In this document: positions 5,346 through 50,265 of the stretch, one piece after another
How positions within the stretch are numbered: position 1 is the stretch's first letter
Layout of the letters: every line of letters starts with the position of its first letter
Source: Pseudomonadota bacterium
Lineage (GTDB): Bacteria; Pseudomonadota; Alphaproteobacteria; Caulobacterales; Hyphomonadaceae
Direction of reading: 5' to 3'
DNA: 64,000 nucleotides
NCBI GenBank assembly: GCA_039815485.1
Contig: JBCBZD010000002.1
Span: forward strand, 269,933 to 333,932
Notes under the pieces: generated by a model
Told to the model about the DNA's origin: nothing
Seen by the model: the letters and a program-made list of their open reading frames with translations, nothing else
Database searches by the model: none
Program-made: the position numbers and the translations under genes

Positions 5346-6227
5346 TTAGGCTTGCGGAATAAGGCCTGCGGTTTCCGGGTCACCGACCATAACGGTCAGG
5401 GCCTTGCGCAGTTTGCCAAGCGCCTGATGCTCAATCTGGCGAACCCGTTCCTTGGAAATCCCAAGCCGTTTGCCAAGCACTTCCAGCGTCACGCCATCAT
5501 CGGTCAGGCGGCGCTCCATGATGATCAGCGTCTCGCGCTCATTCAGTGCTTTTAAGGCTTCGGCAATCCACTCCTTGCGGCGTTCGCTGTCATGCTGCTC
5601 CATCACCTGAACGTCCGGTGTGGCCGCATGATCTGGCAGAAGGTCCTGCCATTCAGCTTCTCCGTCAGCCGTCATGGGGGCGTTGAGAGAGCGATCAGCA
5701 GCTGACAGGCGCGAGGCCATGGAGGCAACATCCCGCTCTGGCACACCAAGGTGTTCAGAGACCCATTTGCGGTTCTCATCGGTCATAATGCCATCGCCGG
5801 TATCATCAATCTTGGCGCGCAACCGGCGCAGGTTGAAGAATAGCGATTTCTGCGCTGCTGTCGTCCCGGTGCGAACAATCGACCAGTTGCGCAAGACATA
5901 ATCCTGAATGGAAGACCGGATCCACCATGAGGCATAGGTCGAAAAGCGCACTTCGCGGCCCGGATCAAATCGCGCGGCCGCTTGCATCAGGCCGACATTG
6001 CCTTCCTGAACAAGGTCGGCGAGCGGCAGGCCATAGTGGCGAAACTTCGAAGCCATCGCGATCACCAGACGCATATAGGCCGTCGTCAACTCATGCAGGG
6101 CGCGTTCATCTTCATGGTCTCGCCAACGCGTTGCCAGATGGATCTCATGATCGGCCTCCAGCATCGGGGCCTTCATGGCTTTCCGAACGAATCTGCGATC
6201 AGCGGGTCCTGCTTGCTGTGACGCCAT
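5346..6227 (-). CDS. rpoH2: RNA polymerase sigma-32 family factor, RpoH2 type
   Basis: Region 2 DLVQEGNVGLMQAAARFDP...FSTYASWW, RpoH box QKSLFFNLRR, region 4 TLEVLGKRLGISKERVRQIE. Located next to carD as in other alphaproteobacteria. Confidence 0.88.
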   Translation of the reverse strand: MASQQAGPADRRFVRKAMKAPMLEADHEIHLATRWRDHEDERALHELTTAYMRLVIAMASKFRHYGLPLADLVQEGNVGLMQAAARFDPGREVRFSTYASWWIRSSIQDYVLRNWSIVRTGTTAAQKSLFFNLRRLRAKIDDTGDGIMTDENRKWVSEHLGVPERDVASMASRLSAADRSLNAPMTADGEAEWQDLLPDHAATPDVQVMEQHDSERRKEWIAEALKALNERETLIIMERRLTDDGVTLEVLGKRLGISKERVRQIEHQALGKLRKALTVMVGDPETAGLIPQA

Positions 6228-6252: not shown

Positions 6253-6281
6253 TCTTACGCCGTGTCAGCAGGTTCGGATCA
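6253..6281 (-). promoter_or_regulatory. RpoE (ChrR-controlled ECF) promoter of rpoH2
   Basis: TGATCC-N18-TAAGA, matching the Rhodobacter/Caulobacter sigmaE consensus. rpoH2 is an established sigmaE target in Rhodobacter sphaeroides. Confidence 0.78.
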
Positions 6282-6339
6282 CATCAGACTTGATTTATTT
6301 TGGATCGAACTAAAAAGCGAATCCAATGGGGTTGGAATG

Positions 6340-6369
6340 AAAAAAGCCCCGCCAGATCGGCGAGGCTTT
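6340..6369 (-). terminator. carD terminator
   Basis: AAAGCCUCGCC-gaucu-GGCGGGGCUUUUUU. Confidence 0.8.
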
Positions 6370-6403: not shown

Positions 6404-6925
6404 TCAGGCAGCTTTCTTCTTTGCCAGTGACTTGGCCAGACGATCCATGGCCATGTCATGGTCAATGCTTTCAACCGCTGCAAGTTCACGTGCCATACGG
6501 TCAAGCGCGCTCTCGTAGAGCTGGCGTTCGGAATAGGACTGTTCAGGCTGATCTTCCAGACGGTGCAGATCACGAACAACTTCCGCGATGGAGATCAGGT
6601 CGCCAGAATTGATCTTGGCTTCATATTCCTGCGCGCGGCGCGACCACATGGTCCGCTTGATCCGGGCCTTGCCGCCAAGTGTGCGCAGTGCATCGTCGAC
6701 CAGTTTTGAACCTGCCAGCGCACGCATGCCAGAGGCAATGGCGCGATTGGTTGGAACACGCAGGATCATCTTGTCCTGATCAAAAGAGACAACATAGACT
6801 TCGAGCGTCATGCCCGCGACTTGCTGCTGATCAATGCTGGTGACAGTACCAACACCGTGAGCGGGGTAGACAATCTTTTGTCCAGCCTCGAAGTCGAGCT
6901 TTGTTGCCGCATCTGATTTTGCCAT
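6404..6925 (-). CDS. carD: CarD/CdnL family transcription factor
   Basis: IVYPAHGVG and IKRTMWSRRAQEYEAKINSG motifs. Start moved to MAKSDA (6925); the longer ORF-track extension overlaps the promoter. Confidence 0.92.
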   Translation of the reverse strand: MAKSDAATKLDFEAGQKIVYPAHGVGTVTSIDQQQVAGMTLEVYVVSFDQDKMILRVPTNRAIASGMRALAGSKLVDDALRTLGGKARIKRTMWSRRAQEYEAKINSGDLISIAEVVRDLHRLEDQPEQSYSERQLYESALDRMARELAAVESIDHDMAMDRLAKSLAKKKAA

Positions 6926-7022
6926 GTGGGAGACCTCATTTTCTACGCAAACGAGCCATGTCACCGGTGAAAGAAGGTCCACCGACAATGTGCATGGCTC
7001 GCAAGTCTTGTTGTGACAGATA

Positions 7023-7051
7023 TGTATAGCAGAAAACCGTCCTATTCTCAA
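7023..7051 (-). promoter_or_regulatory. Sigma70-type promoter of carD
   Basis: TTGAGA-N17-TATACA. Confidence 0.55.
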
Positions 7052-16172: not shown

Positions 16173-16204
16173 AAAGGGCGGCTCAGATTGGGCCGCCCTT
16201 TTTT
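16173..16204 (+). terminator. Intrinsic terminator of the TBDR gene
   Basis: AAAGGGCGGCUC-agauu-GGGCCGCCCUUUUUU. Confidence 0.9.
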
Positions 16205-16241
16205 ATTGGTCTTCGGGCCGGTATGTGGCATGGGCCGCGCG

Positions 16242-17255
16242 ATGACCGCCCCGCTGATCACTGTGCCACCGGAATGGACAGAGCAAGCCGCCCTATGGGT
16301 TGGCTGGCCGCACCTGCGCGAGGAATGGGGCAACGCGTTCGAAGCCGCGCGCGCGGAGATCGCGGTGTTCATCGAAACAGTCAGCAAAGCGGTTCCGGTC
16401 AAGGTCGCCTGCGGTTCAGACGAGGCTTCTGCGAGCGCCGAACGCGCCTTGCGAGATTGCCAGGACCGCGCCGTCTTACACCGCATCCCAACCGGCGATA
16501 TCTGGCTGCGCGATACCGGTCCTGTCTTTGTTGAAATAGGCACAGGCCGGTCAGCGCTCTGTTTTCAGTTCAATGGCTGGGGTGGTAAATTTGTCATGCC
16601 GGGTGATACCGAAACCGCGTCTGCAATCGCCGCAGCTGAACAGGTGAAAGCCACTCGCCATGACGTCATCCTCGAAGGCGGCGCGGTCGATTTCGATGGC
16701 GCAGGCCAGGTGCTCACAACCCGTCAATGCCTGCTCAACCCGAACCGAAATCCCCGATGGACCGAAGCCATTGCCGAGGCCGCCTTGCAAAGGGCTTTCG
16801 GCGTCTCGCAGGTGATCTGGCTTGATCAGGGGCTGCGCGGCGATCACACCGATGGTCATGTCGACAATCTCGCTCGCTTAATTGCACCAGGCCAAGTAGT
16901 TTGTCAGATGGCGTCCGGCACGGATGACCCAAACAAAGAGCGATACGACGCGTGCTATGACAGCCTGCTCAAGGCCGGGCTCGCCGTGACACGCATTCCG
17001 TCGCCTGGCCGGATTGAAGATGCAGACGGCCAGGTCGCAGCGGCCAGCCATATGAATTTTGTTATCACCAATGGCCTGGTGATCCTGCCCACCTATGAGG
17101 ATGTGTTCAGCCTCCGCGCGGTCGAGGCGCTTGAGCCACTCTTCCCAGCGCATGAGATTGTCCCGCTTCCCGCCCGCGCAATTCTTGCCGGCGGCGGCAG
17201 TTTTCATTGTATGACCCGAGAGGTTCCAAAGTTTCCAACCCGGAGAACGGCATGA
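16242..17255 (+). CDS. aguA: Agmatine deiminase
   Basis: DIWLRDTGP, EGG, DHTDGHVD and GGGSFHCMT motifs. Start placed at MTAPL. Confidence 0.9.
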   Translation: MTAPLITVPPEWTEQAALWVGWPHLREEWGNAFEAARAEIAVFIETVSKAVPVKVACGSDEASASAERALRDCQDRAVLHRIPTGDIWLRDTGPVFVEIGTGRSALCFQFNGWGGKFVMPGDTETASAIAAAEQVKATRHDVILEGGAVDFDGAGQVLTTRQCLLNPNRNPRWTEAIAEAALQRAFGVSQVIWLDQGLRGDHTDGHVDNLARLIAPGQVVCQMASGTDDPNKERYDACYDSLLKAGLAVTRIPSPGRIEDADGQVAAASHMNFVITNGLVILPTYEDVFSLRAVEALEPLFPAHEIVPLPARAILAGGGSFHCMTREVPKFPTRRTA

Positions 17256-18094
17256 CCCGACAGATCATAGTTGCTGCCGTGCAGCTCGCCTTCGAGGACG
17301 ATATGCAGGCCAATATCGCCTCTGTGGCACTTCGTATTGCAGAAGCAGCCGCGAAAGGCGCAGGCATCGCTGTGCTGCCTGAACTCTTCTGCGCGCCCTA
17401 TTTCTGCAAGACGCAGGATGAGCGCCATTTTACCACCGCATATCCGGCCGCAGAACATCCGGCGGTCACAGCGCTTGCACCGCTCGCGGCCAAGTATGAC
17501 ATCGTCATTCCAGTCTCGATCTTCGAGAAGGACGGCCCGCATTACTATAATAGCGTCGTCATGCTGGATGCAGATGGCACGATCCTCGGCACCTATCGCA
17601 AAAGCCACATCCCGGATGGGCCAGGTTATCAGGAGAAATTCTACTTCCGGCCCGGTAATACCGGCTTCAAGGTCTGGCAGACACTAAAGGGCCGTATCGG
17701 GGTTGGGATCTGCTGGGATCAGTGGTTTCCAGAGGCCGCGCGCGCCATGGCGCTTCAGGGGGCGGACCTGCTGCTTTATCCAACCGCGATCGGCGCAGAG
17801 CCTCAAGATCCGGGCCTTGATACTGCCGCGCGTTGGCGCCGTGCGATGCAGGGCCACGCGGTGAGCAATGTCATCCCCGTCGCGGCGGCCAATCGTATTG
17901 GCGATGAGGCGGGACAGATCTTCTATGGTACCAGTTTTATTGCTGATCATACCGGGGAGGTTGCAGCAGAGCTTGGCCGAACGGAGCAGGGTGTCATCAC
18001 CGCCGCATTCAATCTCGATGACATAGAGCGGGACCGCGCAGCATGGGGCTTCTTTCGCGATCGACGGCCCGACTTATATACAGATCTGACGTAA
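17252..18094 (+). CDS. aguB: N-carbamoylputrescine amidase
   Basis: Nitrilase fold: LPELF, YRKSHIPDGPGYQEK, ICWDQWFPE. ATGA overlap with aguA. Confidence 0.93.
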   Translation: MTRQIIVAAVQLAFEDDMQANIASVALRIAEAAAKGAGIAVLPELFCAPYFCKTQDERHFTTAYPAAEHPAVTALAPLAAKYDIVIPVSIFEKDGPHYYNSVVMLDADGTILGTYRKSHIPDGPGYQEKFYFRPGNTGFKVWQTLKGRIGVGICWDQWFPEAARAMALQGADLLLYPTAIGAEPQDPGLDTAARWRRAMQGHAVSNVIPVAAANRIGDEAGQIFYGTSFIADHTGEVAAELGRTEQGVITAAFNLDDIERDRAAWGFFRDRRPDLYTDLT

Positions 18095-18152
18095 CCGCAC
18101 CTGCGGTGAAAAATCAGGTGCATAGATTTGACGATTGGGTTAGCGACACATC

Positions 18153-18779
18153 ATGTTTGAACTCTCTGGACTGTCCGCTTACCCGGCGACTGTATTGCTG
18201 ATCGCCGCGAATATCGCGGCCAGCTTCTATGCCTTCTCGAACCCGGCCTTCATGAACAAGAACCTGTTTCACGTCGGTCCGATCCTGCAGGGGCGGGAAT
18301 GGTCCCGTGTGTTCACCAGCGGGTTTCTGCATGGCGGCATGCTTCACCTGTTTGTGAACATGTACGTGCTCTGGGGCTTTGGCCGGGCGATCGAGAGCTT
18401 GCTCGGGTCGCCGCGCTATCTCATCATCTATTTCGCCTCGCTTGCTGGCGGCAGCTTATGGTCACTGTTGGAAAACAAGGACAAGCCGGACTATCGCGCG
18501 CTTGGGGCATCCGGTGCAACTTCCGGCATCATTCTCAGTGTCTGTCTGTTCTTGCCCTTCACCATGCTCGGCTTCTTCTTCATTCCGATGCCTGCAGTTG
18601 TTTTCGCAATCCTGTTCATTGTCGTCAGCGCGGTTCTGGCGCAGCGTGAGAACAAGGTGATTGCGCACGAAGCCCATCTCGGCGGCGCATTGGCCGGTAT
18701 TCTCGCGACCATCGCGGTGGAGCCACGTGCGCTTCAAGCCTTCTCGACACAAGTCTCACAAGCGCTTGGGGGCGGTTAA
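18153..18779 (+). CDS. Rhomboid intramembrane serine protease
   Basis: HLFVNM, GASG (catalytic Ser) and AHLGG motifs. Confidence 0.9.
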   Translation: MFELSGLSAYPATVLLIAANIAASFYAFSNPAFMNKNLFHVGPILQGREWSRVFTSGFLHGGMLHLFVNMYVLWGFGRAIESLLGSPRYLIIYFASLAGGSLWSLLENKDKPDYRALGASGATSGIILSVCLFLPFTMLGFFFIPMPAVVFAILFIVVSAVLAQRENKVIAHEAHLGGALAGILATIAVEPRALQAFSTQVSQALGGG

Positions 18780-18782
18780 GGC

Positions 18783-19862
18783 TTGGGCAGCGTCACTGAT
18801 ACTCTCAAGGCACGCATTTCTGAGGGGCTGCTGTCTCACGACCCGGCTCAGTTCGGCGCGGCAGGTGCGCTCGATCAGGTTCTGGCGCAGTTACAAGCCA
18901 GTACCAAAAAGTCATGGTTCAGCCGGTCGAAGCCTGCGCGCGGGCTCTATATGTGGGGCGGTGTCGGGCGTGGAAAATCGATGCTGATGGACCTTTTCCA
19001 TGAGGTGGCCCCTGTGCCGTCCCGGCGGGTTCATTTTCATGAGTTTATGGGACGCGTGCATGAGCGTCTCGGCAGGGCGCGCGCCCGCCGCGATGTCAGC
19101 GATCCAATCCCCCCAGTGGCGAAAGAATTCGCCTCAGAGGCGAAATTGCTCTGTTTTGACGAGTTTCAGGTCACCCAGATCGCGGACGCGATGATCCTGT
19201 CGCGCCTGTTTGAGCATATGTTCGAAGACGGCGTGTGCGTGGTGGCAACATCTAACCGCCATCCGGATGATCTGTATAAGAACGGATTGAACCGCCACTT
19301 ATTCCTGCCCTTTATCGATCTTCTGAAGGGCACGTGCGATGTGTTTGAACTCGCCTCGGCGCGGGACTACCGGCTGGAGAGGCTGACCGAAGCGCCGGTC
19401 TGGTATGTTGCATCTGACCGTACAATTCTTGATCACGCATTTGACCGGCTGACGCTCGGGGCAGCGCCGCATGCCTGCGAGCTCTCGGTCCAGGGGCGCA
19501 AGGTTCCGGTGGCGCGGCAGGCGGCTGGTGTTGCCCGATTCAGCTTTGAGGAACTCTGCGCCCGCCCGCTTGGTGCGCAGGACTATCTCACCATAGCCGC
19601 GACGTTTCATACCGTCCTGCTGGACGATATTCCGACGCTCTCTCCGGCAAACCGTAACGAAGCTGCCCGCTTCGTAGCGCTGATCGACGCGCTGTATGAG
19701 GCGAAGGTCAAACTCGTCGCCAGTGCGGCGGCTGATCCTGATGACCTTTACCCCGAAGGCGATGGCAGCTTTGAGTTTCAGCGCACGGCCAGCCGCCTGC
19801 ATGAAATGCGGTCGCTTGAATACATGTCTGAAGAGCACCGTATTCCCGAGAGCGCTCAATAA
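18783..19862 (+). CDS. zapE: AFG1/ZapE family ATPase
   Basis: GGVGRGKS, CFDEFQV and RTASRLHEM motifs; TTG start. Confidence 0.92.
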   Translation: MGSVTDTLKARISEGLLSHDPAQFGAAGALDQVLAQLQASTKKSWFSRSKPARGLYMWGGVGRGKSMLMDLFHEVAPVPSRRVHFHEFMGRVHERLGRARARRDVSDPIPPVAKEFASEAKLLCFDEFQVTQIADAMILSRLFEHMFEDGVCVVATSNRHPDDLYKNGLNRHLFLPFIDLLKGTCDVFELASARDYRLERLTEAPVWYVASDRTILDHAFDRLTLGAAPHACELSVQGRKVPVARQAAGVARFSFEELCARPLGAQDYLTIAATFHTVLLDDIPTLSPANRNEAARFVALIDALYEAKVKLVASAAADPDDLYPEGDGSFEFQRTASRLHEMRSLEYMSEEHRIPESAQ

Positions 19863-19946
19863 AAAATGTGCGCCGAGGCTGAGTAAGCCCAAAAGTTGGG
19901 GGGAGGAAACTTTGGAGCAGCCCCGGCGCCACGAGTTGAGGTCGTG
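19861..19946 (-). ncRNA. Candidate sigmaE-dependent small RNA with anti-SD loops
   Basis: Own promoter, 5' hairpin CACGA-CCUCAAC-UCGUG, long hairpin with loop UCCUCCCCCC, terminal U6, no AUG ORF. Confidence 0.7.
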
Positions 19947-19952
19947 TACCCT

Positions 19953-19981
19953 ATGTACGGGACGTCTTGCGGACTGGATCA
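19953..19981 (-). promoter_or_regulatory. RpoE(ChrR)-type promoter driving the sRNA
   Basis: TGATCC-N16-CGTACAT, same spacing as the rpoH2 promoter (TGATCC-N16-CGTAAGA). Confidence 0.7.
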
Positions 19982-20068: not shown

Positions 20069-21058
20069 ATGCAATCTGCAAATATGGCGCTTGGCGCGCT
20101 TCTTCTGATCGGTCTTACCGCCTGCAGTCAGGTTGAGTCGACGCCGTCTGAGACCCTTTACGAGCCGACGCGGTTCAGCGGCGACTATCTCCTCGATCTG
20201 GCAGAGGCGCTGAGTTCTGATGACCTGCAGGGGCGCGCGCCGGGGACTGAAGAGAGCATGCGCGCGCGCCAAATGATTATAGACCGTTTCGAAGCGCTCG
20301 GGGTTCAGCCTGTGAACGGTTCGTTTGAACATCCTTTCCTCTATGGCCCCTTCACCAATCCTGAAACGGGCGAGGACGCGGTCCCGGACAAACCCGGCAC
20401 GAATGTCATGGGCCTGATTGAGGGCAGTGGTGAGAGTGATCTGACCATGGTTCTGACCGCGCACTTTGATCATCTCGGTGTGCGCGAGGGCGAAATTTTC
20501 AACGGAATGGATGACAATGCGTCCGGCGTCACCGGCATACTAGCGGCGGCGGAATACTTTTCCGAAAACACGCCTCTGCACAATGTTCTGATCGTTGCGC
20601 TCGATGCAGAGGAAGATGGTCTCAGCGGCGCGCGGGACTTCGTCACCAATCCACCGATCCCGCTGGAGACCATCGCCTTCAATCTGAACCTTGATATGGT
20701 CTCGCGCGGCGACAATGGTCTGCTCTGGGCCTCGGGCGCCGCGCATTGGCCAGCTCTCGAGCCAATGATTGTGACGGTCGCCAGCACGGCACCGGTTGAG
20801 GTTCGCATGGGCTTTGACACTGGCGAGGGGCGCGACGACTGGACGCTCCTGTCAGATCATGGCGTCTTCTTCCGCGCTGGCATCCCGCACCTCTATCTCG
20901 GCGTGGAGGATCACCCGGATTATCACCGCCCGAGCGATGATTTCGAAAACGTCGATAAAGACTGGTACCTGCGTTCGATCGAAACGGTTGTGATGATGGC
21001 CGACGCGGCGGATGCGATCCTGGTCGAGATTGACGGCATGAAGAGCGTTGAAGAGTAG
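20069..21058 (+). CDS. M28-family metallopeptidase lipoprotein
   Basis: Lipobox LTAC; AHFDHLG, DDNASG, AEEDGL, NLDMV and YHRPSD motifs. Confidence 0.9.
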   Translation: MQSANMALGALLLIGLTACSQVESTPSETLYEPTRFSGDYLLDLAEALSSDDLQGRAPGTEESMRARQMIIDRFEALGVQPVNGSFEHPFLYGPFTNPETGEDAVPDKPGTNVMGLIEGSGESDLTMVLTAHFDHLGVREGEIFNGMDDNASGVTGILAAAEYFSENTPLHNVLIVALDAEEDGLSGARDFVTNPPIPLETIAFNLNLDMVSRGDNGLLWASGAAHWPALEPMIVTVASTAPVEVRMGFDTGEGRDDWTLLSDHGVFFRAGIPHLYLGVEDHPDYHRPSDDFENVDKDWYLRSIETVVMMADAADAILVEIDGMKSVEE

Positions 21059-48778: not shown

Positions 48779-49273
48779 GTGTTTGTCTCGACGCATGAGA
48801 CATCGTTGGATTCGAAAGGTCGGGTATCTGTCCCGGCCTCGTTTCGTCATGCCTTGGGCGGCGGGACGCGCATCTTCCTGTGGCCTGCATCCGATGGCTC
48901 GCCTTGTCTTGAGGGCGGCGGTGAAGCGTTGATGGCGACCTATCGTCAGACGCTGGCCCGGATGAGCCCGAATGACCCGGCGCGGCGCGCCTTCATGCAC
49001 GCCATCTTCACCCGCTCGGCGGATTTGAAGATGGACGATACGGGCCGGATTTCGATCCCCAAGCCGCTGCTGGCGGCGGCGGGCATCACCAAGGAAATGA
49101 TTTTTGCCGGTTCGCTCGACCGTTTCCATGTCTGGGAGCCGTCGCGTTTTGCGGCTTTCGATATGGATATGGCTGAACAGCTTGAGACCCATCAGTCTGC
49201 TATTGAGGCCCCGTTTCAGGCTGCGCTTGCGGCAGGCGGGATCCTCGGCGTTGTCGGCGGGGAGGAGAGCTGA
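48779..49273 (+). CDS. mraZ: Division/cell-wall cluster repressor MraZ
   Basis: LDSKGRVSVPASFR and MDDTGRISIP motifs; GTG start. Confidence 0.95.
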   Translation: MFVSTHETSLDSKGRVSVPASFRHALGGGTRIFLWPASDGSPCLEGGGEALMATYRQTLARMSPNDPARRAFMHAIFTRSADLKMDDTGRISIPKPLLAAAGITKEMIFAGSLDRFHVWEPSRFAAFDMDMAEQLETHQSAIEAPFQAALAAGGILGVVGGEES

Positions 49274-50265
49274 TGGCGCATATCCCGGTCCTGCTGCCCG
49301 AAGTGATCGAGGCGCTTCAGCCCACGGATGGCGAAACCTATGTTGACGGTACGTTTGGCGGCGGCGGTTATGCGCTGCGTGTCCTCGCCGCCGCAGACTG
49401 CACATTGTACGGGATAGACCGCGATCTCGACGCGATTGAGCGGGCAGAGATGATCGCTGCCGATCAGCCGCGATTGATCCCGCTCATGGGTCGCTTTGGC
49501 GACCTGGAGCCGCTGTTGCTGAACGCCGGCATCCGCTCGGTTGACGGTGTGATGCTCGATATTGGCGTGTCCTCTTTCCAGATCGACGAAGGCGTGCGCG
49601 GGTTCTCTTTTATGCGCGACGGACCGCTCGATATGCGCATGGGCCAGGCCGGTCCAAGCGCGGCGGATGTCGTCAATACACTGCCCGAGTCCGAGCTCGC
49701 CGCGATCATTCGCCAGCTCGGGGAAGAACGCCAGGCACGCCGGATCGCGAAAACGCTGGTTGAGCGTAGAGTTTCGCAACCTTTTTCGACGACGCTCGAC
49801 CTTGCAGAGACAATCGAACAGGCGGTTGGCGGTCGGCGCGGCAAGAAAACCCATCCGGCAACGCTGACCTTTCAGGCGGTGCGTATGTTTGTAAATGATG
49901 AGCTTGGGGAACTGGCGCGGGGGCTGGCAGCAGCAGAGCGGATGCTCTCACCCGGCGGCCGCCTGGTCGTGGTGACCTTCCATTCGCTGGAGGACCGTCT
50001 GGTCAAACGCTTCATGCGGGATCGGTCCGGCGAAACCGCGGGTGGCTCGCGCTATCTGCCGGAACGCGAAAAAGGCCCGGACCCGACTTTCCTGCTGCCA
50101 CAGCGCAAGGCGATTGAGCCAGGCGAGGCTGAGGTGCGCGCCAATCCACGGGCCCGTTCTGCGCGCCTGCGCGTCGGGGCGCGGACCGAAGCGCCGATCT
50201 GGGACAAGCCGGTGGAGACCGGAATGCGCCTGCCAAGTCTTGCAGATGTGGAGGTCGCAGCATGA
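49273..50265 (+). CDS. rsmH: 16S rRNA m4C1402 methyltransferase
   Basis: HIPVLL, DGTFGGGGY, DIGVSSFQ, GPLDMRM and FHSLEDR motifs. Confidence 0.96.
   Translation: MAHIPVLLPEVIEALQPTDGETYVDGTFGGGGYALRVLAAADCTLYGIDRDLDAIERAEMIAADQPRLIPLMGRFGDLEPLLLNAGIRSVDGVMLDIGVSSFQIDEGVRGFSFMRDGPLDMRMGQAGPSAADVVNTLPESELAAIIRQLGEERQARRIAKTLVERRVSQPFSTTLDLAETIEQAVGGRRGKKTHPATLTFQAVRMFVNDELGELARGLAAAERMLSPGGRLVVVTFHSLEDRLVKRFMRDRSGETAGGSRYLPEREKGPDPTFLLPQRKAIEPGEAEVRANPRARSARLRVGARTEAPIWDKPVETGMRLPSLADVEVAA

What the first reader, a model, noticed from the sequence alone, without database searches (positions are those of the whole stretch)
19861..19981. Unannotated sigmaE(ChrR)-type sRNA with an anti-Shine-Dalgarno loop, sharing its promoter with rpoH2
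Seen: the minus strand between zapE and the M28 gene has TGATCC-N16-CGTACAT, the same architecture as the rpoH2 promoter 13.7 kb away (TGATCC-N16-CGTAAGA). It is followed by an ~86-nt transcript with no AUG: a 5' hairpin CACGA-CCUCAAC-UCGUG, then a 12-bp outer stem (one G-U) and a ~9-bp inner stem closing the loop UCCUCCCCCC, then U6. Known: TGATCC/TAAGA is the singlet-oxygen RpoE-ChrR promoter, and CCUCC-loop sRNAs (cuckoo/CcsR, AbcR types) pair with ribosome-binding sites. Inference: this is a photo-oxidative-stress translational repressor arm running in parallel with the RpoE-to-RpoH2 cascade. I do not recognise it as a named family.
Basis: partly seen in the sequence, partly recalled or inferred. 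Interest (0 to 1): 0.85.

Follow-up and report, generated by a model that had tools for sequence, protein, structure and literature searches.

The report
Conserved stress-promoter small RNA beside zapE
Between two protein genes lies a short non-coding RNA gene, kept across a group of marine Hyphomonadaceae, that carries a singlet-oxygen stress promoter and a loop able to pair with ribosome-binding sites; it looks like a new family of an already familiar kind of regulator.

Summary
On the minus strand, TGATCC-N16-CGTA (19981-19956) precedes an RNA of about 88 nt (about 19949-19861). It has a 5' hairpin, then a long bipartite hairpin with GUUUCCUCCC in its apical loop, then U6. It runs against both neighbours (zapE and M28, both on the plus strand), so it is neither a leader nor a plus-strand terminator.

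- **Conservation:** 53 homologous loci (49 distinct sequences) were found, always at the 3' end of zapE.
- **Unbiased sample:** in loci fetched through ZapE alone, 22 of 24 loci with ZapE at 70% identity or more carry it. Among the 17 distinct sequences, CGTA, the 16-nt spacer and UUCCUCCC are invariant while the spacer sequence varies.
- **Structure:** the stems covary (21 of 25 pairs with double changes; 0 of 500 shuffles reach this). G-U pairs outnumber A-C 138 to 12, which fixes the minus strand.
- **Coding:** there is no conserved ORF.
- **Known families:** there is no Rfam match.
- **Promoter:** it equals the published RpoE/ChrR (ECF11) consensus and the rpoH-paralogue promoter in the window.

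Not shown: transcription, induction, targets, or rpoE-chrR in this genome. Most likely it is a sigmaE-driven, trans-acting anti-Shine-Dalgarno sRNA: a new family of a known kind, of moderate interest.

The parts
19976..19981 (-). -35 box TGATCC of an ECF11 (RpoE/ChrR)-type promoter, preceded by an A/T-rich tract
   Evidence: In the unbiased ZapE-anchored set it is TGATCC in 14 of 17 distinct sequences, and AGATCC, TAATCC or TGAACC once each. The consensus is given in PMC5507510.
19953..19959 (-). -10 box CGTA(CAT), 16 nt after the -35 box
   Evidence: CGTA and the 16-nt spacing are invariant in 17 of 17 unbiased sequences, while the spacer sequence carries little information.
19861..19949 (-). 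Predicted small non-coding RNA, about 85-89 nt. The TSS is inferred at about 19948 +/- 3 and the 3' end at the U-tract.
   Evidence: The covariance model R1 hits 19861-19949 at 39 bits, E = 2e-7. There is no conserved ORF, and family lengths of 83-102 nt fall in all frames.
19930..19946 (-). SL1: a 5-bp hairpin, CACGA-CCUCAAC-UCGUG
   Evidence: In relatives the equivalent stem is AGAGAG/CUCUCU. Helix 1 is 91.5% paired, and 4 of its 6 pairs show double changes.
19870..19929 (-). SL2: a long bipartite hairpin with a 12-bp outer stem and an inner stem. It also serves as the terminator stem.
   Evidence: In helices 3 and 4, 16 of 18 pairs have compensatory changes. The same result holds on the alignment that was not fitted to the structure.
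19898..19910 (-). Apical loop motif GUUUCCUCCCCCC, the proposed anti-Shine-Dalgarno seed
   Evidence: UUCCUCCC is present in 17 of 17 distinct unbiased sequences. Its columns are invariant in the 49-sequence alignment.
19861..19866 (-). U6 tail of the intrinsic terminator. It abuts and overlaps the zapE stop codon TAA (19860-19862 on the plus strand).
   Evidence: In relatives the tail is UUACUUCUGGU or UCACUUUUGGU, which is the antisense of the last zapE codons.
6256..6281 (-). Reference promoter of the same type, TGATCC-N16-CGTAAGA, upstream of the sigma-32 paralogue (5346-6227, minus strand)

Best explanation
This is a free-standing gene for a small non-coding RNA of about 88 nt.

Shown by comparative evidence:
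- It has its own promoter of the RpoE/ChrR (ECF11, singlet-oxygen/organic-peroxide) type.
- The RNA folds into a short 5' hairpin and a long bipartite hairpin.
- The apical loop of the long hairpin displays an invariant C-rich sequence, GUUUCCUCCC.
- The long hairpin plus a U-rich tail ends the transcript at the zapE stop codon.

Inferred mechanism:
- When the anti-sigma factor ChrR releases sigmaE, the RNA accumulates alongside the sigma-32 paralogue, which carries the same promoter.
- Its exposed CCUCC loop then pairs with G-rich Shine-Dalgarno regions of trans-encoded mRNAs, blocking ribosome binding and/or changing mRNA stability.

The targets are unknown.
For: - **Orientation:** it runs against both flanking genes, and there is no downstream minus-strand gene.
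- **Promoter match:** it equals the published consensus TGATCCn16CGTA and the Pos19 promoter TGATCC(N15)GCGTA.
- **Promoter type confirmed in passing:** the same motif drives an ECF-sigma/ChrR operon that the pattern scan picked up by accident (L035).
- **Distribution:** there are 53 homologous loci, all at the 3' end of zapE.
- **Unbiased sample:** among ZapE-anchored loci, 22 of 24 with ZapE at 70% identity or more carry it. CGTA, the spacing and UUCCUCCC are invariant, TGATCC is nearly so, and the spacer varies.
- **Motif specificity:** the exact motif occurs nowhere else in 742 kb of related DNA apart from rpoH2.
- **Covariation on the fitted alignment:** 89% of cells are paired, 21 of 25 pairs have double changes, 0 of 500 shuffles reach this, and slid controls give 42-53%.
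- **Covariation on the sequence-only alignment:** 85% paired and 17 of 25 pairs with double changes.
- **Strand:** 138 G-U cells against 12 A-C cells.
- **Loop versus stems:** an invariant loop with variable stems is the signature of a base-pairing seed. A purely cis-antisense RNA would not need it.
- **Coding:** there is no conserved ORF on either strand.
Against: - No transcript evidence was found. The RNA-run searches returned nothing, or only contigs of unknown kind that were uninformative.
- rpoE-chrR was not found in the 64-kb window, so the cognate sigma factor of this genome is inferred from the rpoH2 promoter and the literature.
- No target with extended complementarity to GGGAGGAAAC exists in the window.
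- The best duplex partner, the rsmH SD at -24 kcal/mol, is only a lead, because any strong SD pairs with CCUCC.
- In most relatives the U-tract is interrupted, so termination efficiency, and therefore RNA length, is uncertain.
- The strict linkage to zapE could reflect a cis role.
Confidence: 0.6

Rival explanations
1. It is a cis-antisense regulator. The sigmaE-driven transcript acts on the plus-strand zapE mRNA, or on a zapE-M28/DUF1993 read-through transcript. It could do this by perfect pairing across the zapE 3' end and intergenic region, giving RNase III cleavage or 3'-end destabilisation. Alternatively it could act by transcriptional interference when its weak terminator is read through into zapE. 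Either way, cell division would be coupled to photo-oxidative stress.
For: - In all 53 loci the element sits at the zapE 3' end, whereas the other neighbour varies between M28 and DUF1993.
- Its tail overlaps the zapE stop codon or last codons.
- The U-tract is imperfect in most relatives.
- No plus-strand terminator follows zapE, so zapE transcripts probably run through the complementary region.
Against: - A cis-antisense RNA is complementary whatever its sequence, so this model does not explain an invariant GUUUCCUCCC loop combined with covarying stems.
- A strong GC-rich terminator stem is conserved.
- Synteny can simply be inheritance within a narrow clade.
- The two roles are not mutually exclusive.
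Confidence: 0.17
2. It is a structured RNA that works by binding a protein or another RNA rather than mRNA ribosome-binding sites. Examples would be a sponge or decoy, or an RNA that titrates a C-rich-binding factor. It would still be transcribed from the sigmaE-type promoter.
For: - The conserved loop is longer than an anti-SD needs: GUUUCCUCCCYCC, about 13 nt.
- No specific target was found.
Against: - The C-rich CCUCC loops of alphaproteobacterial sRNAs described so far are interpreted as anti-SD seeds (cuckoo/CcsR, ar14/NfeR1; PMC4615179).
- No candidate partner protein is encoded next to it.
Confidence: 0.12
3. It is not a gene. The hairpin is merely the zapE (or a bidirectional) terminator, and the TGATCC-N16-CGTA upstream is fortuitous. 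Alternatively, the plus-strand GGGAGGAA is the SD of a small plus-strand ORF.
For: - The hairpin immediately follows the zapE stop codon.
- In the window, a TTG sits 5 nt after the plus-strand GGGAGG and opens a 74-codon frame.
Against: - The U-run is on the minus-strand side only; on the plus strand the hairpin is followed by no T-run.
- G-U pairs outnumber A-C 138 to 12, and 89% of cells pair against 79% on the opposite strand.
- The promoter boxes are conserved with a variable spacer, and the motif is absent elsewhere in 742 kb.
- SL1 is also conserved, and a terminator does not need it.
- The plus-strand start codon is missing in most relatives (35 of 46 loci), and promoter-to-loop lengths differ by 1-2 nt between close relatives.
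Confidence: 0.04

Closest known systems
Pos19 (RSs0019) of Rhodobacter sphaeroides, the one characterised RpoE/ChrR-dependent sRNA (PMC5036791)
   Same: - It has an orphan promoter of the same type, TGATCC(N15)GCGTA, which is TGATCC-N16-CGTA.
- It is a free-standing intergenic gene ending in a stem-loop terminator with an atypical U-tail.
- It belongs to the singlet-oxygen/peroxide regulon.
   Different: - Pos19 is 219 nt long, carries a translated small ORF, and is reported only in R. sphaeroides strains.
- The present RNA is about 88 nt with no conserved ORF.
- The present RNA has a CCUCC apical loop and is confined to a Henriciella/Hyphomonas-like clade.
- No homology between the two is implied. 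The sequences were not compared directly, because no Pos19 sequence was at hand.
Cuckoo / CcsR1-4 (RSs0680a-d) and ar14/NfeR1 sRNAs of Rhodobacterales and Rhizobiales (PMC4615179)
   Same: - They have hairpin loops displaying a C-rich anti-Shine-Dalgarno motif (CCUCCUCCC), with variable stems.
- They are induced by oxidative or other stresses.
- Their presumed mode of action is pairing with ribosome-binding sites.
   Different: - Cuckoo RNAs have 2-4 adjacent hairpins, each carrying the motif. Here only SL2 carries it in most members, and the motif is GUUUCCUCCCYCC. Only the L006/L022/L105 lineage also has UUCCUCCC in SL1.
[quoted passage not shown] Here the RNA has its own ECF11 promoter.
- No Rfam family matches at E <= 10.
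ECF-sigma-dependent sRNA arms in other bacteria: E. coli sigmaE with MicA/RybB/MicL, and Caulobacter sigmaT with GsrN (from my own knowledge)
   Same: - The regulatory logic is the same: an ECF sigma factor drives a small RNA that adds a repressing, post-transcriptional arm to an otherwise activating regulon.
- GsrN also uses an exposed C-rich loop.
   Different: - The sigma factor group and promoter differ. E. coli RpoE and EcfG/sigmaT recognise other motifs; here it is TGATCC-N16-CGTA.
- The sequences and structures are unrelated, and the targets here are unknown.
The rpoHII promoter of the RpoE-to-RpoHII cascade (PMC6852236)
   Same: - A sigma-32 paralogue in the window carries the same TGATCC-N16-CGTA promoter.
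- This mirrors the R. sphaeroides cascade, in which rpoHII transcription depends on sigmaE.
   Different: That promoter drives a protein-coding sigma factor gene; here the same promoter type drives a non-coding RNA.

Membership tests
RpoE/ChrR (ECF11) regulon member | Promoter TGATCC-N16-CGTA in front of the transcription unit | tested here: met
   There is an exact match at 19981-19956. The consensus comes from PMC5507510 and PMC5036791.
RpoE/ChrR (ECF11) regulon member | Promoter conserved in orthologous positions across species (the criterion used for the core regulon) | tested here: met
   In the unbiased ZapE-anchored set, CGTA is present in 17 of 17 sequences, the 16-nt spacer in 17 of 17, and TGATCC in 14 of 17 with single-base variants in the other three. 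Spacer information content is low.
RpoE/ChrR (ECF11) regulon member | The genome encodes the ECF11 sigma factor and its ChrR anti-sigma factor | not testable with these tools
   The pair is not in the 64-kb window. It is only inferred, from the rpoH-paralogue promoter. The motif does drive a sigma/ChrR operon in unrelated MAGs (L035).
RpoE/ChrR (ECF11) regulon member | Transcription depends on sigmaE and is induced by singlet oxygen or organic peroxide | not testable with these tools
   No RNA runs were usable.
Trans-acting base-pairing sRNA | Independent transcription unit: its own promoter and terminator, non-coding, with a conserved secondary structure | tested here: met
Trans-acting base-pairing sRNA | Conserved single-stranded seed and demonstrable mRNA targets | tested here: inconclusive
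   The seed criterion is met: the loop is invariant. The targets are not identified. The window has no extended match, and the rsmH SD is only the best generic duplex.
Cuckoo / CcsR (RSs0680) family | 2-4 adjacent hairpins, each with CCUCCUCCC in the loop | tested here: not met
   Only SL2 carries a C-rich motif in the window and in most relatives, and that motif is GUUUCCUCCCYCC. The definition is from PMC4615179.
Cuckoo / CcsR (RSs0680) family | RpoHI/HII promoter and co-transcription with an upstream small protein gene | tested here: not met
   The RNA has its own ECF11-type promoter, and no ORF lies between the promoter and the RNA.
Any Rfam 15 family | Covariance-model match | tested here: not met
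   There is no relevant hit at E <= 10 for the window, L013 or L006 versions.
Pos19 | An RNA of about 219 nt with a translated small ORF and its SD | tested here: not met
   Family members are 83-102 nt, with lengths in all three frames and no conserved start codon.
Intrinsic (Rho-independent) terminator | GC-rich stem followed directly by a U-run on the transcribed strand | tested here: met
   In the window a 12-bp GC-rich outer stem is followed by ACA and then U6. In most relatives the run is interrupted as UUACUUCUGGU, so it is weaker there. The simple scanner missed it because its loop limit is 3-8 nt.

The most novel reading that the evidence does not exclude
ECF11 sigmaE regulons in Alphaproteobacteria may generally include a CCUCC-loop RNA made directly from a sigmaE promoter.

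Three forms were seen here:
- A free-standing gene beside zapE in the Henriciella-like clade.
- A possible 5'-leader-derived hairpin RNA of rpoE-chrR itself in Acetobacteraceae-like MAGs (L035, L038, L044, L056, L077). Its apical loop is the same, CGUUUCCUCCCCCG, and its inner stem shows a compensatory change.
- An orphan unit in another MAG (L054).

Such RNAs would mimic the 16S rRNA anti-SD and damp translation of strong-SD mRNAs during singlet-oxygen stress. That would be a so far unrecognised, recurrent non-coding arm of this stress response.
Probability: 0.15. Interest if true: 0.7.

Novelty: new member of a known kind. Interest (0 to 1): 0.5.

Why it matters
The RpoE/ChrR response to singlet oxygen and organic peroxides has been described almost entirely as a transcriptional cascade (sigmaE to RpoHII). 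Its only known RNA member, Pos19, is restricted to one species and encodes a peptide.

A conserved, purely non-coding, anti-SD-type RNA under the same promoter would give the regulon a repressing post-transcriptional arm in non-phototrophic marine Hyphomonadaceae. It would also offer a compact, testable model: one promoter, one seed loop. At least one carrier is a cultured strain with a complete genome (Hyphomonas sp. Mor2, L005).

The practical gain is a new covariance model for annotating these genomes. The conceptual gain is moderate, because ECF-sigma-driven sRNAs and CCUCC-loop sRNAs are both well known.

Tried and rejected
- **Rfam:** gathering and E <= 10 searches on the window and on two divergent family members found nothing relevant.
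- **Terminator scanner:** it did not flag the hairpin because its loop limit is 3-8 nt, so this is not evidence against a terminator.
- **RNA evidence:** three searches for RNA runs and two read-laying runs gave only contigs of unknown library type. A depth spike in run X12 lies on the conserved last 50 nt of zapE, not on the sRNA. It is best explained by several strains collapsing onto a conserved stretch.
- **RNAalifold on a plain MAFFT alignment:** it gave a weak, mis-registered consensus. I therefore imposed a structure derived from the single-sequence folds, built a covariance model, and checked the pair counts on both the fitted and the unfitted alignments.
- **M28 as synteny anchor:** rejected, because M28 is not always next to zapE (L009 and L011). 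ZapE is the constant neighbour.
- **Plus-strand small ORF behind GGGAGGAA:** rejected.
- **Minus-strand GUG ORF (19932-19708):** rejected, because it is not conserved.
- **Target search in the window:** there is no extended complement of the seed. The duplex ranking is dominated by generic G-rich SDs.
- **About half of the 72 genome pattern hits** are chance matches in unrelated phyla, roughly the number I had expected by chance when designing the pattern. They do not score with the model.
- **Protein-database search for RpoE/ChrR in the clade:** not run, because the top-hit list would have been filled by relatives of the only available query (L035).
Full report
**What is in the sequence.**

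- TGATCC at 19981-19976, a 16-nt spacer, and CGTACAT at 19959-19953.
- A 5-bp hairpin, CACGA/CCUCAAC/UCGUG, at 19946-19930.
- A 12-bp outer stem, 19929-19918 paired with 19881-19870, with one G-U.
- An inner stem closing the loop UCCUCCCCCC at 19907-19898.
- ACA followed by U6 at 19866-19861.

As RNA the 90-nt stretch folds at -35.1 kcal/mol, z = -4.98, and none of 200 shuffles folds as well. The opposite strand folds less well, at -32.4 kcal/mol and z = -2.13.

The only other exact TGATCC-N16-CGTA in the window is at 6281-6256. It lies 28 nt upstream of a 293-aa sigma-32 paralogue (NF005693, 420 bits), 13.7 kb away as stated.

**Context.**

zapE (18783-19862; NF040713, 415 bits) and an M28 peptidase gene (20069-21058) are both on the plus strand. 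The element is therefore convergent with zapE and divergent from M28.
- No minus-strand gene lies downstream of it.
- Its U-run abuts the zapE stop codon TAA at 19860-19862.
- On the plus strand the hairpin is preceded by an A-run and followed by no T-run.

It therefore has the form of a terminator for a minus-strand transcript only.

**Relatives.**

The organism is an uncultured marine member of the Hyphomonadaceae. The nearest named M28 homologue, at 79% identity, is from a Henriciella MAG, and the DNA is found only in marine metagenomes.

Four syntenic loci fetched through M28 homologues already showed four things:
- The same -35 and -10 boxes.
- A 5' hairpin with a different sequence.
- The invariant GUUUCCUCCC.
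- A second hairpin.

A pattern scan of one genome per species (promoter boxes plus GTTTCCTCCC) returned 72 loci. About half are Henriciella, Hyphomonas, Hyphomonadaceae or unnamed Pseudomonadota MAGs with the same element beside zapE. The rest are chance matches in unrelated phyla and do not score with the model.

That scan required the promoter and the loop, so I drew a second, unbiased sample: 80 metagenome loci found through the ZapE protein alone. A covariance model of the RNA (R1) gave these results:
- It hits directly downstream of zapE in 22 of the 24 loci whose ZapE is at least 70% identical and which have downstream sequence.
- It hits none of the roughly 55 loci at 68% identity or less, apart from one contig from a MAG labelled Parvularcula.

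The family is thus confined to a narrow clade and is always attached to the zapE 3' end. The other neighbour can be M28 or an inserted DUF1993 gene.

**Promoter.**

In the 17 distinct unbiased sequences:
- CGTA and the 16-nt spacing are invariant.
- The -35 box is TGATCC in 14, and AGATCC, TAATCC or TGAACC in one each.
- The spacer sequence carries almost no information.
- An A/T-rich tract precedes the -35 box.

This is the conservation pattern of a promoter.

The boxes equal the published consensus for RpoE/ChrR-type sigma factors, TGATCCnnnnnnnnnnnnnnnnCGTA (PMC5507510). They also equal the promoter of the RpoE-dependent sRNA Pos19, TGATCC(N15)GCGTA (PMC5036791).

Two further results support the assignment:
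- In 742 kb of related loci, both strands, the exact motif occurs only in front of this RNA and in front of the rpoH paralogue.
- Five of the accidental pattern hits turned out to be the promoter of an ECF sigma plus ChrR operon (zf-HC2 plus ChrR cupin domains).

What is missing is the sigma factor gene of this genome: rpoE-chrR is not in the window. A sigma-32 paralogue behind the same motif reproduces the R. sphaeroides sigmaE-to-RpoHII cascade (PMC6852236), and that is the best available indication that the factor is present.

**Structure and strand.**

I aligned 53 matches (49 distinct sequences) to the model and counted pairs:
- 89.1% of 1202 pair cells form standard pairs.
- 21 of 25 pairs show changes on both sides.
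- There are 125 compensatory cells, against 41 +/- 5 in shuffles; 0 of 500 shuffles reach the observed value on any measure.
- Sliding the 3' partners by 1-3 columns drops pairing to 42-53%.

The same structure on the plain MAFFT alignment, which was not fitted to it, still gives 85.3% pairing and 17 of 25 pairs with double changes. No more than 3 of 500 shuffles reach the observed value on any measure.

The outer stem of SL2 is the most variable, with examples such as CGCAUUG/CAAUGCG, CGUGCAU/AUGCACG, UCGCUGAGG/CCUCGGCGG and GCGCCGGGGCUG/CAGCCUCGGCGC.

G-U cells outnumber A-C cells 138 to 12. Read on the opposite strand, only 78.6% of cells would pair. Selection therefore acts on the minus-strand RNA.

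Against this variable background the loop columns UUUCCUCCC are invariant, including in the unbiased sequences. One of those has CUUCCUCCC.

**Not coding.**

- Family members are 83-102 nt long, in all three length classes modulo 3.
- Only 28 of 49 contain any AUG, and then mostly inside the 3' arm of SL2.
- The GUG frame in the window (19932-19708) is therefore not conserved.
- On the plus strand, GGGAGGAA followed by TTG could open a small ORF in the window. However, 35 of 46 relatives have no start codon at SD distance.
- Promoter-to-loop distances differ by 1-2 nt among close relatives.

**The 3' end.**

The window, L001 and the L006 lineage have clean U-runs. Most relatives have UUACUUCUGGU or UCACUUUUGGU, because the tail is the antisense of the last zapE codons (...CAG AAG TAA). 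Termination may therefore be less efficient there. Pos19 is likewise reported to lack a typical poly-U tail.

**Mechanism.**

Shown by comparative evidence: an independently evolving, structured, non-coding minus-strand RNA with a conserved ECF11-type promoter and a conserved C-rich apical loop.

Inferred:
- It is induced when ChrR releases sigmaE.
- The loop pairs with G-rich ribosome-binding sites in trans.

The main argument for trans action is that a cis-antisense RNA needs no particular sequence, whereas here a 9-13-nt loop is frozen while the stems drift.

The main alternative is a cis role on zapE or on zapE-M28 read-through transcripts. It is suggested by three things:
- The unbroken linkage to zapE.
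- The overlap with its stop codon.
- The lack of a plus-strand terminator.

The two roles could coexist.

The 'terminator only' and 'small ORF' readings are contradicted by the strand asymmetry, the promoter conservation and the lack of a conserved frame.

Targets could not be addressed. The window has no extended complement of the seed. The best duplex is the SD of rsmH, the first gene of the division/cell-wall cluster, at -24 kcal/mol. It is a generic strong SD and only a lead.

**Comparison with known systems.**

- **Pos19:** it shares the promoter type and the regulon, but is 219 nt long, encodes a peptide, and is confined to R. sphaeroides.
- **Cuckoo/CcsR and ar14/NfeR1:** they share the C-rich anti-SD loop idea. 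They are defined by 2-4 hairpins each carrying CCUCCUCCC, and CcsR is made from an RpoHI/HII promoter together with a small gene. Here only one hairpin carries the motif in most members, the motif differs, and the promoter is ECF11.
- **Rfam 15:** it has no match for three divergent members.
- **Literature:** full-text searches found no sigmaE/ChrR-dependent sRNA other than Pos19, and nothing for Hyphomonadaceae.

I therefore file it as a new family of a known kind: a regulatory sRNA dependent on an ECF sigma factor, with an anti-SD loop.

**Limits.**

- There is no expression data of any kind.
- There is no whole genome for target prediction or for finding rpoE-chrR.
- The window's own copy is an outlier of the family (39 bits against 65-102 bits for most members), although its fold is the same.
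- Covariation counts include related sequences, so the shuffle control overstates independence. The slid-partner control and the unfitted alignment address this.

Noticed in passing
L035:3885-4040 (minus strand); also L038, L044, L056, L077: In uncultured Alphaproteobacteria and Acetobacteraceae MAGs, TGATCC-N16-CGTA drives an ECF-sigma plus ChrR operon. Its leader of about 100 nt folds into a long bipartite hairpin with the apical loop CGUUUCCUCCCCCG. The inner stem is GGAUG/CAUCC in L035 and CCGGC/GCCGG in L044, which is a compensatory change. A second hairpin covers the rpoE SD. This may be a leader-derived counterpart of the sRNA, or a translational control of rpoE.
   Followed up: partly
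L054:3555-3690 (minus strand): An orphan TTTGATCC-N16-CGTA is followed by two small hairpins, a single-stranded GUUUCCUCCC and a canonical terminator (GCCCCAGCUUUCGAGCUGGGGC plus U6). It is convergent with a histidine-kinase gene in an unrelated alphaproteobacterial MAG. It is a possible analogous sigmaE-type sRNA, but there is only one instance, so chance is not excluded.
   Followed up: partly
L006:3184-3285, L022:2307-2408, L105:3583-3684: One lineage of the family has an enlarged SL1 loop, ACAAUUCCUCCCAGA. Both hairpins therefore carry a CCUCCC motif, giving a two-module architecture closer to cuckoo/CcsR RNAs.
   Followed up: no
window 6256-6281 (minus strand) and 5346-6227 (minus strand): A sigma-32 paralogue (NF005693) sits behind an exact TGATCC-N16-CGTAAGA. 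This is the RpoE-to-RpoHII cascade architecture known from R. sphaeroides. A CarD-family regulator gene (6404-7051) with its own terminator-like hairpin (GGC-rich stem followed by a T-run, about 6330-6365) lies just upstream.
   Followed up: partly
L087:2544-3000: This is one locus with ZapE 73% identical that lacks the sRNA. A minus-strand ORF abuts zapE, and only a remnant resembling the 3' arm and tail (…CCUCACUUCUGGUC) remains. It looks like a natural loss or replacement.
   Followed up: no
L005:3437-3940, L006:3391-3894: In some relatives a DUF1993 gene lies between the sRNA promoter and M28. The divergent neighbour therefore varies, while zapE stays constant.
   Followed up: partly
window 49245-49275 (plus strand): rsmH, the first gene of the dcw division/cell-wall cluster, has an unusually G-rich SD, GGCGGGGAGGAGAG. 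It gives the best meaningful duplex with the sRNA loop in the window (-24.0 kcal/mol; the mean over 559 start regions is -6.7). This is a lead only.
   Followed up: partly
window 16188-19862 (plus strand): The same-strand cluster agmatine deiminase, N-carbamoylputrescine amidase, rhomboid protease, zapE is kept in the relatives, downstream of a TonB-dependent receptor gene.
   Followed up: no
L094:3512-3575 in run X12: The last 50 nt or so of zapE show about a ten-fold depth spike (very short contigs at depths of 19-52, against about 5 on the flanks). The most likely cause is several strains sharing this highly conserved stretch. It is not on the sRNA and is not evidence of expression.
   Followed up: partly
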